Origin: Escherichia coli
GTDB taxonomy: Bacteria > Pseudomonadota > Gammaproteobacteria > Enterobacterales > Enterobacteriaceae
DNA length: 64,000 bases
Direction: 5' to 3' (one strand)
NCBI RefSeq assembly: GCF_003991155.1
Contig: NZ_CP031293.1
A program made the position numbers. Below are positions 48,001-54,000 of the stretch, one piece after another. Every line of letters begins with the position of its first letter. Position 1 is the first letter of the stretch.

Positions 48001-51000
48001 CCCATGAACATCCGTTTCGGGATGGCAACGGGCGCACCAGTCGGGCGCTGTTTTACTGGTATATGCTGAAATCGGGCTACGATGTCTTTAAATATATTTC
48101 CATCAGCCGTTTGCTTCATGCTGCACCGGTCAAATATGCCGCCAGCTACCAGTACACTGAATCAGATGGTATGGATCTGACTTATTTCCTTGAATATCAG
48201 GCGGGTGTCATTAAACGTGCTCTGCAAAACTGGCAGCAGCATATCGATGAAATTACACAACGAAGCGCAAAACTCGATAGTGTGCTGTTTAGCTCTGGTG
48301 TGCTTAAACGCCTGAATCCGCGCCAGGTAACGCTCCTGAATGTGATGCTCGCCAATCCGGGGAAAGAGTACACAGTTGCTGAAATTAGCGCGAGCCTGGG
48401 CGTCTCTGATAATACGGCTCGAGCTGATTTACGGACAATTGTTAAAGAAGGGTTTGCGCAAGAGAAGAAAATTAATGACCAGCAAGCCGTGTACTTCGCG
48501 CATTATCCGCTGTAACCCTTGCCCGTAAATTCGTGATAGCCGTCGTAAAGCTGTTATCGACTGGCGAAGATTTCGCCAGTCACGTCTACCCTTGTTATAC
48601 CTCACACCGCAAGGAGACGATCATGACCAATAATCCCCCTTCAGCACAGATTAAGCCCGGCGAGTATGGTTTTCCTCTTAAGTTAAAAGCCCGTTATGAC
48701 AACTTTATCGGCGGCGAGTGGGTAGCCCCTGCCGACGGCGAGTATTACCAGAACCTGACGCCGGTGACCGGACAGCTGCTGTGCGAAGTGGCGTCTTCGG
48801 GCAAACGAGACATCGATCTGGCGCTGGATGCTGCGCACAAAGTGAAAGATAAATGGGCGCATACTTCGGTGCAGGATCGCGCGGCAATTCTGTTTAAGAT
48901 TGCCGATCGAATGGAACAAAACCTTGAACTGTTAGCGACGGCTGAAACCTGGGATAACGGCAAACCAATTCGCGAAACCAGTGCTGCTGATGTACCGCTG
49001 GCGATTGACCATTTCCGCTATTTCGCCTCGTGTATCCGGGCACAGGAAGGCGGTATCAGTGAAGTTGATAGCGAAACCGTGGCCTATCATTTCCACGAAC
49101 CGTTAGGCGTGGTGGGGCAGATTATTCCGTGGAACTTCCCGCTGCTGATGGCGAGCTGGAAAATGGCTCCCGCGCTGGCGGCGGGCAACTGTGTGGTGCT
49201 GAAACCCGCGCGTCTTACCCCGCTTTCTGTTCTGCTGCTAATGGAAATCGTCGGTGATTTACTGCCGCCAGGCGTGGTGAACGTGGTTAACGGCGCTGGT
49301 GGGGAAATTGGCGAATATCTGGCGACCTCGAAACGCATCGCCAAAGTGGCGTTTACCGGATCAACGGAAGTGGGCCAACAAATTATGCAGTACGCCACGC
49401 AAAATATTATTCCGGTAACCCTGGAACTGGGCGGCAAGTCGCCAAATATCTTCTTTGCTGATGTGATGGATGAAGAAGATGCCTTTTTCGATAAAGCGCT
49501 GGAAGGCTTTGCACTGTTTGCCTTTAACCAGGGCGAAGTTTGCACCTGTCCAAGCCGTGCTTTAGTGCAGGAGTCTATCTACGAACGCTTTATGGAACGC
49601 GCCATCCGCCGTGTCGAAAGCATTCGTAGCGGTAACCCGCTCGACAGCGTGACGCAAATGGGGGCGCAGGTTTCGCACGGGCAATTGGAAACCATCCTCA
49701 ACTACATTGATATTGGTAAAAAAGAGGGCGCAGACGTGCTCACCGGCGGGCGGCGCAAGCTGCTGGAAGGCGAACTGAAAGACGGCTACTACCTCGAACC
49801 GACGATTCTGTTTGGTCAGAATAATATGCGCGTGTTCCAGGAAGAAATTTTTGGTCCGGTGCTGGCGGTGACCACCTTCAAAACTATGGAAGAAGCGCTG
49901 GAGCTGGCGAACGACACGCAATATGGCCTGGGCGCGGGTGTCTGGAGCCGCAACGGTAATCTGGCCTATAAGATGGGGCGCGGCATTCAGGCCGGGCGCG
50001 TGTGGACCAACTGTTATCACGCTTACCCGGCACATGCGGCGTTTGGCGGCTACAAACAGTCGGGCATCGGACGCGAAACCCATAAGATGATGCTTGAGCA
50101 TTACCAGCAAACCAAGTGCCTGCTGGTGAGCTACTCGGATAAACCGTTGGGGCTGTTCTGATGTGAAAGGCAGGCAACGTTAATAGTTGTCTGCCTTTGT
50201 TTTAGTTGTATAAAGCGGCAGTCGCTTTTAACTCATCGCTGAAAGAATAAATATCATCGAGAGATTCAATAGGATGGCGGGTTTCGTTTTTCTCTAAGTC
50301 AAATAAACCAATATATTTTTGATTTCGATTGAAATGTAATCTACAGAGTGGCTTTCGATTATTGTCATCTACAAGTATACCAAAATAGCTTTTTGTATCT
50401 CTGTGGACTATTCGTGGTGCATCAAGCACTACGCGGACTATAGCTTTAACAATATGAAATCCTTCAAGTTCCTCCATAGTAGTGGCAATATCGGTTTCTT
50501 CTTTATTAATACATTCTACTTCCTCATTGTGTGAATTCGAATCAATTACAGATAATGACCCACCACCTATTGCCGATTTCAATCTTTCGTTTATTTGAGA
50601 GTTAATATATTGATTGGCAGCTTTCTTTGTTAATTTTGCAAACGTATCTTTTACCTTTTGTGTTAACATACCTTCATAAATTCTTGCTGCAAAGAATTTT
50701 ACAAAATCCTCTTCAGGATTATTCATTTGTGCATGGAGAACTTTTTTAATTAAACTAACATATTTTAATTCACCTGCAGCATTAATTATTGATTCCAAAT
50801 CAAATGCTGATTTAGTAAGCTTCTTTATCTCGGGAATAACTGTTTCATCTAAGTCAAGTAGATCTATCTCAAGAAATGGTTTTTCATCCATTTTATTAGG
50901 TGCTTCTAAATCAGTAAAAAATTTATAAACTTGTCCATTGGTTAGAATAGATATTCTTGCATTTGTTACATGAAAGTATCGAAAAAGCTGTGAAGCATGA

Positions 51001-54000
51001 TTTATATTTAGAGGATCGCCAATTTTTTTGCATTCAATGAGAATTTGAACCTCGCTATTTTTTAAGATTGCATAGTCAATCTTTTCACCTTTCTTCGTTC
51101 CAATGTCGCATACAAACTCTGGGATAACTTCGGTAGGATCAAAGACATCATAACCTAACACATTGTTAATGAACGGCATTACGAAAGCATTTTTGGTAGC
51201 TTCCTCCGTTTCAATGACTCCGGCTTGTTGTTTTATTTTTGCGGATAATGAATTCAGCTTATCTATAAACTCCATAGACATTATAACTCCTTTTATATAT
51301 ATTTAATAAAAATGCGTTTTATAAAAATATAGAAAATATTTATATATTAACGCTTTATCATTGGTCATAGTTAATGTATAACACACAAAAAATAATGTTT
51401 GCACATTGTAAATACAATGGTGAAACAAACTTGATATTTATCAAGAAAATAAAACAATGTCTTTTATTGGTTGTTTTAAATGTTCAATGAATACGAGTTG
51501 GAACTATAGCAAGACTAGCTTCGATATCGCATGGATAATCTAATACAGATTTTTTAACACCTAATACTATGAGTTATATGTAAATTGCGAGCATCCTCGC
51601 ATCTTTTCAACAAGTTACTGCACACCGTTATTCTTCTTCCGAGCGGCATTCCTGAGTCAACTTTATCCCCCTGACGGCCCATATAAATCGCGCTATCGTG
51701 ATTGTTATCACTAATTGTGTGTATCGTGTGTATAATCATGGAAGGGCAGGGATGTGAAAAGTGCAGACGTGATCGCCATCCTGAAGCAGCATGGCTGGGA
51801 ACATATTCGAACCCGTGGCAGTCATCATCAGTTCCGCCACCCTGTTCATCCGGGTCTGGTGACGGTTCCGCACCCTAAAAAAGATATTAAGCCCGGTACG
51901 CTGGCGCAAATTGGGCGTCAGGCTGGTTTAACATTTTAAAATTTCAGGAGGCAATATGTTTTATCCCGCCTATATCCACAGTGATCCTGACGGCAGCGCC
52001 AGCGGTTTTTTCCCTGATGTTCCAGGCTGTTATTTTGCTGGTGATACGCTGGACAACGCTTTCCAGGATGCGCGAAGTGCACTGGTCGCGCACTTCGAAA
52101 CCTTATGCGAGATGGATGAAGAGTTGCCGCTTCCAGGCTCTGTGGAAACACATCTGGTCCAGCGTGCGCAGGACTTTATTGGCGGGCAATGGTTGCTGGT
52201 GGATATCAATATGAATCAGTTCGAAGGTCGGGCTGAACGTATCAATATTACGATGCCGAAAAGGTTACTGAACAAGATTGATACCTACGTGCGCAATAAC
52301 CCAGACTACGCCAACAGAAGTGCGTTTCTGGCAGAAGCTGCCCGGCGTGTATTGCCGGGCGTTTAATCTCGCGTTTCGATGGTTAGCGGGCAACTGCACC
52401 GACTTGTAGGCCTGATAAGACGTGTTAAGCGTCGCATCAGGCAATGTGCACCCTACGGTGGATGCGGCGCGAGCGCCTTATCCAACCTCCGGATGGCAAT
52501 GCTTTTCCTCATTCACCCAGATCCGCATTTCGCCTTCACCCCGGTTAGCCCAGCTAAACCACGGGATAAACGTCAGAGTTTGCGGCTGGCGTTTGGCTGG
52601 CGCACTGTCGTAATGCCACAGCGGTTGCTGCTCTGGATTGCTCTGTTCATACCGGTAACCCGGTGCCTGGATTAAGATCTTATGGCTGAACAATCCATTA
52701 CCTTCAAATGTCGTAAATGGCGCATCGGCGGGCAGCCACAGGTTATGCAGCGACTCGCTGTTGTCGGCCTGTTCCAGGCAATAAACCAGCGGGCCGCGCT
52801 GAATCGCCACTTTTCCGGCGACGTGACGCACCAGCGGGTTACCGTAAACGCGACGTACTGGCATTGGCAACGTCAGATTCAGCGTGTCGCCCTCCTGCCA
52901 TTCGCGGGTAATGTGCAAATACCCTTTACGAATATCCTGCTCGACCTCTTCCCCATTCAATATGATCTGCGGCTGTGTGCACCAGTCCGGCAGACGTAAA
53001 GCCAGCGTATGACGCACCGGCTGGGGCGATTCAACCGCAATTGTCACCTGTTCCTGCCACGGATAGTTTCCGCTAACCCGCAGACGCAGCGTGCCATTTT
53101 CTACCGGCACTTCCATGCTGTTTCCTGCGTATATGTTGATATACAACGCATCTTCACGCGGCGTGTAGAGATAATGACCAATCGAGGTTAGCACGCGGGC
53201 GATATTTGGCGGACAACAAGCGCAACCAAACCAACGCTGGCGGATCGGCTTAACGTGATCGTAGATATGGTTGAATTTCAGCGATTTTGGATGTACTTCC
53301 AGCGGATTCACATAGAAGAAATGTTTGCCATCCAGTGCCATGCCGCCGAGCACAGTGTTGTACAGCGCGCGCTCCATCACATCGGCATATTGACTGTCGC
53401 CTTCCATTTCCAGCATTCGTCGGGCAAACATCATCAGGCCGATGGAGGCACAGCTTTCGGCGTATACCGTGTCATTCGGCAGATCGTAATCGCTGCTGAA
53501 CGCTTCACCGCTGCTCTGTGAGCCAATGCCGCCGGTAATATATAACTGACGCTGGGCCATATTGTTCCACAGCCGCAGGCAGTCCTGACGCTTGCTTTCA
53601 TCGTGACTTAAACGCGCGAGATGCGCGACGCCGGTCATCAGGTAGACAAAACGTACCGCGTGACCAATGGCGGTTTGCTGCTGTGCGATGGGCAAATGTG
53701 CCTGGCTGTAGGCTTTGTCTTTCACCATCCACGCCGGGCCGTAGGTGTGCCAGTGCGAGGTCTGCCCGCGCTTTTCATATTCCTGGTCGTAATAGTGCGG
53801 TTGCGCACCACGCTGTTCGACAAAATAGTTCGTCAGCGCCAGGTAGCGCGGCTCTTCGGTCACTTCATACAGGCGCATTAGTGCCAGTTCAATTTCCGGG
53901 TGACCAGGATAACCGTGTAACTTACTTTCATCTGGACCAAATACGCTGTCGATATGATCGGTCAGACGGCAAACTACTTCCAGCAAGCGCCGTTTTCCCG

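What the first reader, a model, noticed from the sequence alone, without database searches (positions are those of the whole stretch)
50202..51753. Orphan, strongly AT-rich PD-(D/E)xK nuclease-domain gene next to aldB: candidate single-gene defence protein
The 359-aa product begins with a restriction-endonuclease-like fold (Asp in KIDYAIL, then ILIECKK, then QLFRY...ILTNG) resembling the N-terminal nuclease domain of type I restriction R subunits. No methyltransferase, specificity subunit or helicase domain is nearby, and the C-terminal 200 aa match no family I recognise. The gene is far more AT-rich than the neighbouring aldB, sits beside a hicAB toxin-antitoxin pair, and occupies the position where K-12 has yiaW-yiaT as I recall. 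This is the typical context of an uncharacterised anti-phage gene. This is the strongest candidate in the window for a previously undescribed system.
Basis: partly seen in the sequence, partly recalled or inferred. Interest (0 to 1): 0.7.

Follow-up and report, generated by a model that had tools for sequence, protein, structure and literature searches.

The report
Solitary HsdR-type nuclease, likely prophage-style defence
This is a real, horizontally acquired E. coli gene for a stand-alone DNA-cutting enzyme with no partner methylase; it belongs to a very large untested family that temperate phages carry beside their repressor and integrase genes, so it is a credible but unproven anti-phage gene, not an orphan.

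Summary
A 359-aa ORF (50202-51281, minus strand, 29-35% GC against ~52-57% flanks) encodes an intact HsdR-N-type PD-(D/E)xK nuclease (D69, E83-x-K85, Q98xxxY102). It has no methyltransferase, specificity subunit or helicase nearby.

It is not an orphan. The family has over 5,000 clusters at 50% identity across phyla, phages and plasmids. It matches PHROG 4225 end to end, and public names are automatic ("type I restriction endonuclease").

The AlphaFold model (pLDDT 92) shows four parts: nuclease, a helical region, an acidic disordered linker, and a new C-terminal alpha-beta5-alpha domain. That domain has no Pfam or PDB sequence match and only weak similarity to the double-wing/frataxin-like fold.

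In E. coli the gene is a 1,420-bp insert in 188 of 5,426 genomes, 1.7 kb from a SoFic-like defence gene. No partner gene is conserved across 80 species.

The best functional clue is placement in phages. In four temperate phages of four distant hosts it lies between repressor and integrase, and in viral contigs it sits near the prophage end.

Most likely it is a methylase-independent, type-IV-like restriction nuclease used for defence (confidence about 0.5). No experiment exists. It fails the membership tests for type I and type IIG enzymes. Interest is moderate.

The parts
50202..51281 (-). Complete CDS, 359 aa plus stop: solitary HsdR-N-type nuclease (WP_000061475.1)
   Evidence: ORF list. 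100% identical annotated CDS in E. coli 2016C-3878. The exact protein is seen on 828 contigs.
50862..51281 (-). aa 1-140: PD-(D/E)xK nuclease domain with TEEATK helix (K30), E55, D69, E83-x-K85 and Q98xxxY102
50565..50861 (-). aa 141-239: all-helical region, connector-like
50487..50564 (-). aa 240-265: acidic, disordered, fast-evolving linker
   Evidence: pLDDT 42-46. Family mean net charge -4.9. pN ~0.5-0.65, so essentially unconstrained.
50205..50486 (-). aa 266-359: C-terminal alpha-beta5-alpha domain of unknown function. Conserved residues: TT267-268, E271, R290, R294, D295, Y299, D305, R309, K310, R314.
51287..51292 (-). Shine-Dalgarno AAGGAG, 5 nt before the ATG
   Evidence: Read directly from the sequence.
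51282..51582 (.). AT-rich (about 27-30% GC) upstream region carried with the gene; presumed promoter region
   Evidence: Composition. Part of the insert. No promoter-like site for the gene's strand was found here by the consensus scan. Not conserved with relatives.
50166..50198 (.). 13-bp-stem hairpin between the convergent aldB and nuclease genes; terminator-like
   Evidence: Terminator scan and inverted repeat I5.
50163..51582 (.). The acquired 1,420-bp block, which replaces 103 bp found in empty-site strains; no terminal repeats
   Evidence: blastn against empty-site strains L002 and L003, sequences, repeat search.

Best explanation
The gene encodes a stand-alone, methyltransferase-independent restriction-type DNA endonuclease that protects its carrier (a cell, or a lysogen when a prophage carries it) against incoming foreign DNA. 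In other words, it is a type-IV-like single-gene defence.

What is shown:
- An intact HsdR/type IIG-class PD-(D/E)xK active site.
- Three folded domains, all under purifying selection.
- No conserved partner gene.
- Patchy, low-GC, horizontally spread distribution.
- Placement in the lysogen-expressed repressor-to-integrase module of temperate phages.

What is inferred:
- The N-terminal domain cleaves DNA.
- The helical region acts as a connector and possibly mediates oligomerisation, which would bring two catalytic sites together.
- The C-terminal alpha-beta5-alpha domain, tethered by a flexible acidic linker, is the discriminator that keeps the enzyme off host DNA. The most likely way is by recognising a feature of foreign DNA, such as a hypermodified base. 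Recognition of another infection cue is less likely.
- Because this domain is highly conserved across phyla, the recognised feature should be generic, not a variable sequence.

For: Solitary gene: no MTase, HsdS or helicase within 12 kb. No neighbour family recurs in more than 6 of 80 species, and those six are all Pseudomonas.

Accessory and mobile: present in 188 of 5,426 E. coli genomes at one site as a 1,420-bp indel. Lower GC than its flanks in 78 of 80 species, median -9.5 points. Found on plasmids and in phages, with a full-length PHROG 4225 match.

Functional constraint: pN 0.13 against saturated pS 0.87, with only the linker free to vary. E. coli alleles differ by 6 synonymous versus 1-2 non-synonymous codons.

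Defence-type context:
- The gene lies between repressor and integrase, co-oriented, in Corynebacterium, Streptococcus, Fusobacterium and Enterococcus phages.
- It lies in a moron block with hicAB in Porphyromonas phages.
- In viral contigs of at least 20 kb, it is within 3 kb of the contig end on its 3' side in 22 of 54, against 4.8 expected (P=3e-10). After de-replication this is 10 of 32 lineages, against roughly 3 expected from the same per-contig probability.
- Integrase-like ORFs lie within 2.5 kb downstream in 13 loci and upstream in none.
- A SoFic-like defence gene lies 1.7 kb away in the window.
- Rare fusions to TerD (3 of 10 long variants) and RAMA (1 of 10) exist.
- The validated defence protein Nhi also uses an HsdR-like nuclease domain (PMC11232893).
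Against: No experiment on any family member was found. PADLOC does not recognise it: there is only a partial REase_MTase_IIG hit at 3.7e-7 and PDC-S26 at 0.032. NCBIfam finds nothing significant.

Of the 30 nearest chromosomal neighbours in 15 genera, 26 have no defence hit and only 2 are strong hits.

The family is unusually conserved for a defence protein: 53-59% identity between E. coli and Actinobacteria.

The end-of-contig enrichment could partly reflect errors in prophage boundary prediction.
Confidence: 0.5

Rival explanations
1. It is an abortive-infection or toxic effector nuclease. The enzyme would be held inactive, for example by the acidic linker or the C-terminal domain, and released by a phage-derived cue. 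It would then degrade DNA indiscriminately and kill the infected cell.
For: It is a solitary nuclease with no self-protecting methylase. An acidic disordered linker joins the nuclease to a conserved non-basic C-terminal domain that could be a sensor. Truncated copies are frequent, which would fit a cost to the host; one example is a Salmonella 'partial' cluster with 233 members. It is adjacent to toxin-antitoxin genes in two unrelated settings.
Against: No ligand-binding or sensor family is detected. The prophage lysogeny-module location fits direct restriction equally well. Nothing indicates toxicity. The family is intact and under purifying selection in most carriers.
Confidence: 0.15
2. It serves the mobile element, not host immunity. 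It could be a DNA-processing or recombination nuclease, or a competitor-killing nuclease, used by prophages and plasmids for their own maintenance or spread. The chromosomal copies would then be relics of such elements.
Against: Most of the 80 chromosomal loci show no adjacent mobile-element genes or conserved partners. In Enterobacter the gene sits stably among chromosomal genes. The best structural matches are restriction enzymes, not recombination exonucleases. It is co-oriented with the repressor, so it should be expressed in the lysogen and not during lytic growth.
Confidence: 0.15
3. It is a trans-acting nuclease subunit that works with a separately encoded methyltransferase/specificity enzyme, i.e. 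a split type I or type IIG system, as the PGAP label 'type I restriction endonuclease' implies.
For: The nuclease plus helical region resembles the N-terminal part of type IIG enzymes. A distant Borrelia lp36 homologue (29% identity) lies directly downstream of a very large DNA methyltransferase gene.
Against: No methyltransferase or HsdS gene lies near the gene in the window. None was found among the 40 neighbours scanned with PADLOC in 15 genera. None appears in the five annotated phage contexts. No neighbour family recurs across 80 species. The protein has no motor domain. The Borrelia branch matches only query residues 3-306, so it does not share most of the C-terminal domain.
Confidence: 0.07
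4. It is a housekeeping DNA repair or structure-specific nuclease with no role in conflict with mobile elements.
For: High sequence conservation across phyla. Mostly ordinary metabolic neighbours on chromosomes.
Against: Present in only 3.5% of E. coli genomes as an indel. Systematically lower GC than its flanks. Carried by phages and plasmids. No NCBIfam housekeeping family matches.
Confidence: 0.05

Closest known systems
Nuclease domain of type I restriction HsdR subunits (EcoR124I HsdR, PDB 2w00; Vibrio HsdR fragment 3h1t)
   Different: No SF2 translocase motor, no C-terminal HsdM-binding domain, and no hsdM or hsdS genes. At 359 aa it is about a third the size of an HsdR subunit. It carries an unrelated C-terminal alpha-beta5-alpha domain.
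N-terminal endonuclease plus connector of type IIG/IIL enzymes (BpuSI 3s1s, DrdV 7lo5)
   Different: It lacks the methyltransferase and target-recognition domains that define type IIG enzymes, so it has no built-in way to modify host DNA.
Type IV (modification-dependent) restriction endonucleases such as Mrr, MspJI and SauUSI
   Same: A nuclease with no cognate methyltransferase, a two-module nuclease-plus-second-domain design, and an accessory, laterally transferred distribution. JGI names fragments of the family 'predicted type IV restriction endonuclease'.
   Different: The second domain is not a known modified-DNA reader (no Mrr_N, SRA, EVE/YTH or similar). There is no NTPase. Modification dependence has not been shown.
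Nhi (nuclease-helicase immunity) and Shedu (SduA)
   Same: Both are single-gene defences built around PD-(D/E)xK nucleases, and Nhi's is described as HsdR-like (PMC11232893).
Double-wing / YjbR / YdhG-like / MotA C-terminal domain fold (for the C-terminal domain only)

Membership tests
Type I restriction enzyme, R subunit (the public annotation) | N-terminal PD-(D/E)xK nuclease with QxxxY motif | tested here: met
Type I restriction enzyme, R subunit (the public annotation) | SF2 ATP-dependent translocase (helicase) domains in the same polypeptide | tested here: not met
   The protein is 359 aa. No helicase Pfam domain is found. The AF2 model shows nuclease, helical region, linker and a small alpha/beta domain only.
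Type I restriction enzyme, R subunit (the public annotation) | Cognate hsdM and hsdS genes | tested here: not met
   None within +/-12 kb. No conserved neighbour in 80 species.
Type IIG/IIL restriction-modification enzyme | N-terminal PD-(D/E)xK nuclease followed by a helical connector | tested here: met
Type IIG/IIL restriction-modification enzyme | Fused gamma-class N6-adenine methyltransferase and target-recognition domain | tested here: not met
   No methyltransferase domain by Pfam. The PADLOC hit covers only positions 61-208 of a 1,011-position profile.
Type IV (modification-dependent) restriction endonuclease | Endonuclease with no cognate methyltransferase | tested here: met
   phage contexts.
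Type IV (modification-dependent) restriction endonuclease | A domain that recognises modified DNA | tested here: inconclusive
   The C-terminal domain has no Pfam or PDB sequence match and only weak double-wing or frataxin-like fold similarity. One of ten long variants carries a RAMA domain.
Type IV (modification-dependent) restriction endonuclease | Cleavage that depends on modified substrate DNA | not testable with these tools
   Needs biochemistry or phage and plasmid challenge with modified versus unmodified DNA.
Known anti-phage systems in PADLOC-DB v2 (including Shedu, Nhi, PD-T4/T7/Lambda) | Significant full-length match to a system model | tested here: not met
   Only a partial REase_MTase_IIG hit and PDC-S26 at E=0.032.
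PHROG 4225 ('endonuclease') | Full-length profile match | tested here: met
   E=1.1e-130, aa 3-356 against profile positions 2-352 of 357.
COG4748 (predicted restriction endonuclease) | Match to the COG profile | not tested
   No COG library was available. The link rests on my recollection that 'predicted type IV restriction endonuclease', the JGI name on two family fragments, is the COG4748 label. COG4748 is listed among restriction endonucleases in Tn7 cargo (PMC8649781).

The most novel reading that the evidence does not exclude
This could be an unvalidated but very widespread single-gene immunity family, spanning Proteobacteria, Actinobacteria, Firmicutes, Bacteroidetes, Fusobacteria, phages and plasmids. 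In this reading, an HsdR-type nuclease is aimed at foreign DNA by a previously unrecognised, highly conserved C-terminal alpha-beta5-alpha sensor domain, and temperate phages routinely carry the gene in their lysogeny module to exclude competing phages. The conserved sensor would then read a generic mark of invading DNA, such as hypermodified bases, and not a sequence.
Probability: 0.35. Interest if true: 0.6.

Novelty: new variant of a known kind. Interest (0 to 1): 0.45.

Why it matters
If the defence role is confirmed, a very common one-gene nuclease that databases mislabel as a "type I restriction endonuclease" would become a recognised defence system that current defence finders miss. It would also add a new type of foreign-DNA sensing domain, and it would explain a recurrent cargo gene in the repressor-integrase module of temperate phages from very different hosts. 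It is small, at 359 aa, and needs no partner, so it is easy to test. Its target specificity could also be useful as a reagent if it reads a particular DNA modification. If it is not a defence gene, the result still corrects a widespread mis-annotation.

Tried and rejected
1. A functional link to HicAB. hicAB flanks the gene in E. coli and in Porphyromonas phages. However, about 317 E. coli genomes have the hicA-proximal sequence without the nuclease, and no HicB-like neighbour recurs in 80 loci. I treat the adjacency as coincidental cargo clustering.

2. A conserved partner gene. All-against-all clustering of 925 neighbour ORFs found none. An aldehyde dehydrogenase is adjacent in 5 of 80 loci, which by my rough estimate of how common this paralogous family is fits chance.

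3. Membership of a Dpd island. DpdJ-like and DpdE-like helicases are adjacent in Kutzneria and Brevibacterium, but the other genes in those loci have no PADLOC hits.

4. The K-12 189-bp pseudogene remnant next to yiaT as a relic of this gene. There is no tblastn similarity.

5. The C-terminal domain recurring in other architectures. A profile search returned essentially only fragments of the same family, and AFDB50 hits were also family members.

6. PDB relatives by sequence. None were significant for the protein, the family profile or the C-terminal profile.

7. Mobility signatures. No terminal direct or inverted repeats at the insert borders, no conserved upstream element, and no Rfam family within the insert.

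8. Experimental literature. Nine successful searches under several names found only annotation lists; one further attempt failed with a parameter error.

9. A sigma-70-like promoter for the gene. The consensus scan found none in the upstream region on the gene's strand.
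Full report
**1. The observation**

The window contains a 1,080-nt ORF on the minus strand, 50202-51281, encoding 359 aa. A canonical AAGGAG Shine-Dalgarno lies 5 nt upstream of the ATG (read). GC falls to 0.29-0.35 across the gene and to 0.275 just upstream, against 0.51-0.58 in aldB on one side and hicAB/GH127 on the other.

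- D69 in KIDYAIL
- E83 and K85 in ILIECKK
- Q98 and Y102 in SQLFRY
- T114 to G116 in ILTNG

In an alignment of 80 diverse homologues, K30, E55, D69, E83 and G116 are invariant. K85, Q98, R101 and Y102 are at least 90% conserved.

Pfam reports only HSDR_N_2 (aa 26-123, 1.8e-7) and HSDR_N (aa 52-129, 1.9e-7), with nothing for aa 130-359. No methyltransferase, specificity or helicase gene lies within 12 kb.

**2. How the gene sits in E. coli**

The gene is present in 188 of 5,426 complete genomes. It is always on the chromosome and always between aldB and hicA. About 317 further genomes share only the ~170 bp next to hicA. In two such strains that I inspected, hicA follows aldB directly.

Alignment with those strains shows that a 1,420-bp block (50163-51582) replaces 103 bp. 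The block has no terminal repeats and no conserved upstream element. A 13-bp-stem hairpin (50166-50198) separates the convergent aldB and nuclease genes.

The Fic protein at 47220-48515 matches PADLOC's SoFic model at 1.2e-43. It is itself variable, present in 1,572 of 5,426 genomes. It is independent of the nuclease, because strain MLI114 has the nuclease but no Fic gene.

**3. The family**

The protein is not an orphan.
- An exhaustive search of 1.84 billion cluster representatives finds 5,266 clusters at E up to 1e-3 and 1,215 below 1e-30. Nearly all of the best hits are full length at 340-390 aa.
- Identity to E. coli is 78-85% in Enterobacter, Citrobacter and Salmonella, 61-71% in Pseudomonas, Aeromonas and Vibrio, and still 53-59% in many Actinobacteria.
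- It occurs in 19 phage records and 48 plasmid records.
- It matches PHROG 4225 ("endonuclease") from end to end at 1e-130.
- NCBIfam finds nothing significant. PADLOC has no system model for it, only a partial match to the nuclease region of type IIG enzymes (3.7e-7) and PDC-S26 at 0.032.
- I found no experimental paper.

**4. Structure**

The AlphaFold2 model built from the 80-sequence alignment has mean pLDDT 92. It shows four parts:
- an alpha/beta nuclease domain (aa 1-140)
- a helical region (aa 146-239)
- a disordered linker (aa 240-265, pLDDT 42-46)
- a compact alpha-beta5-alpha domain (aa 266-359)

The QxxxY motif has been shown by mutagenesis to matter for DNA cleavage in EcoR124I (PMC2475608).

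Its conserved residues are a mixed set: TT267-268, E271, R290, R294, D295, Y299, D305, R309, K310, R314. Its mean net charge is -1.3. The linker is acidic, at -4.9.

**5. Selection and mobility**

Against the closest relatives, synonymous sites are saturated (pS about 0.87) while pN is 0.13. All three folded parts are constrained (pN 0.06-0.14 in those comparisons), and the linker is not (pN about 0.5). E. coli alleles differ by 6 synonymous versus 1-2 non-synonymous codons.

In 78 of 80 species the gene has lower GC than its flanks, with a median difference of -9.5 points. The gene is therefore functional and has been repeatedly transferred.

**6. Context outside E. coli**

Clustering 925 neighbour ORFs from 80 species found no recurrent partner. 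The best family occurs in 6 of 80 loci, all Pseudomonas.

PADLOC scans of the 30 nearest neighbours in 15 genera gave two strong defence hits: a DpdJ-like helicase in Kutzneria and a DpdE-like helicase in Brevibacterium. A small HTH/PDC-S09 protein also hit in the Brevibacterium locus, and a few other hits were weak. Twenty-six neighbours had no hit. The other genes in those two loci were negative. Chromosomal defence-island association is therefore modest.

The phage data are more telling. In Corynebacterium phage Juicebox, Streptococcus phage IPP25, Fusobacterium phage FNU_1P and Enterococcus phage EG-TP1, the gene lies between the CI-type repressor and the integrase, on the same strand as both. 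From general knowledge of temperate phages, this is the lysogen-expressed module where superinfection-exclusion and defence genes are usually found. In Porphyromonas phages it lies in a moron block directly after hicA-hicB.

In 80 IMG/VR contigs the gene is within 3 kb of the contig end on its 3' side in 35, and on its 5' side in 12. Among contigs of at least 20 kb the count is 22 of 54 against 4.8 expected (P=3e-10). After de-replication at 90% nucleotide identity it is 10 of 32 lineages, against roughly 3 expected from the same per-contig probability. Integrase-like ORFs lie within 2.5 kb downstream in 13 loci and within 2.5 kb upstream in none.

Among ten unusually long variants, three have an N-terminal TerD domain and one has a RAMA domain.

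**7. Interpretation**

The label "type I restriction endonuclease" is wrong as a membership claim, because the motor domains and the hsdM/hsdS partners are absent. The protein is also not a type IIG enzyme, because it has no methyltransferase or target-recognition domain.

It works most like a methylase-independent restriction nuclease. Such an enzyme must spare host DNA in some way. The simplest reading is a type-IV-like dependence on a feature of foreign DNA that the conserved C-terminal domain reads. That step is inferred, not shown.

The alternatives are:
- an infection-triggered abortive nuclease
- a nuclease that serves the mobile element itself
- a trans-acting subunit of a split R-M enzyme, hinted at only by a distant Borrelia lp36 homologue next to a very large methyltransferase
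- a housekeeping repair nuclease

High conservation across phyla argues against a sequence-specific reader and is unusual for defence proteins. It fits recognition of a generic ligand.

**8. Verdict**

This is a real, intact, accessory gene from a very large, catalogued but experimentally untouched family. Its "orphan / undescribed system" framing was too strong, and its defence hypothesis remains plausible, now supported mainly by the prophage lysogeny-module placement.

- Novelty: a new variant of a known kind, namely a restriction-type nuclease with a new C-terminal module.
- Interest: 0.45.
- Confidence in the defence-nuclease explanation: about 0.5.

Noticed in passing
window 47220-48515 (+): A 431-aa Fic-domain protein (HPFRDGNGRTSR motif) lies between yiaY and aldB and matches PADLOC's SoFic defence model at E=1.2e-43. 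It is itself an accessory insertion, present in 1,572 of 5,426 E. coli genomes, and is independent of the nuclease.
   Followed up: partly
window 51754-52366 (+); L004 5247-7074: A hicA/hicB pair flanks the nuclease in E. coli, and another hicA/hicB pair sits immediately upstream of the homologue in Porphyromonas gingivalis prophages. hicAB occurs without the nuclease in about 317 E. coli genomes, and no HicB-like neighbour recurs in 80 other species, so I judged this to be coincidental cargo clustering.
   Followed up: partly
window 52409-52487: Rfam naRNA4 (RF02564, a nucleoid-associated non-coding RNA) matches at 63.4 bits, above the gathering score of 59.5. The opposite strand also matches at 49.2 bits. 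It lies just downstream of hicB.
   Followed up: no
L097 (Borreliella valaisiana lp36) 1-5143: A distant homologue (about 29% identity, matching only query residues 3-306, so without most of the C-terminal domain) lies directly downstream of a very large class I SAM-dependent DNA methyltransferase gene. Similar homologues occur on about 21 Borrelia and Borreliella plasmid records. This branch may be a true split R-M system, unlike the solitary main family.
   Followed up: no
proteins P0123, P0219, P0240 and others (alignment A3): Rare long variants of the family carry an N-terminal TerD domain (3 of the 10 scanned, best E 7.7e-26). One carries a RAMA domain (8.3e-14), and there is one weak SeqA-C hit. 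A tRNA_m1G_MT domain in one member is probably a gene-call fusion artefact.
   Followed up: partly
L058 1190-5839 (Kutzneria) and L089 7228-10275 (Brevibacterium): In these two actinobacterial loci the nuclease gene is adjacent to a very strong DpdJ-like (2e-184) or DpdE-like (4e-194) helicase. These are components of the 7-deazaguanine Dpd system, but no other Dpd genes were detected within 6 kb.
   Followed up: partly
L096 (E. coli MC1061, a K-12 strain) 11429-11722: K-12 keeps two small pseudogene remnants between yiaT and sgbE, one of them a fragment of an AraC-family regulator. This suggests the K-12 arrangement lost the AraC/MFS/GH127 block that the window strain carries. The other remnant is not related to the nuclease.
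   Followed up: partly
L006-L009 (Enterobacter) 8001-12832: In Enterobacter the orthologous nuclease (79% identity) also lies near aldB-selB-selA, separated from aldB by MipA (YiaT-like) and LysR (YiaU-like) genes. The same chromosomal neighbourhood therefore hosts the gene in two genera, even though synonymous sites are saturated between the two copies.
   Followed up: no
proteins P0092, P0325, P0277, P0360: Many truncated or fragmentary copies exist on long contigs. Examples are a 334-aa Salmonella 'partial' cluster with 233 members and 115-148-aa C-terminal fragments in complete genomes. This points to frequent pseudogenisation.
   Followed up: no
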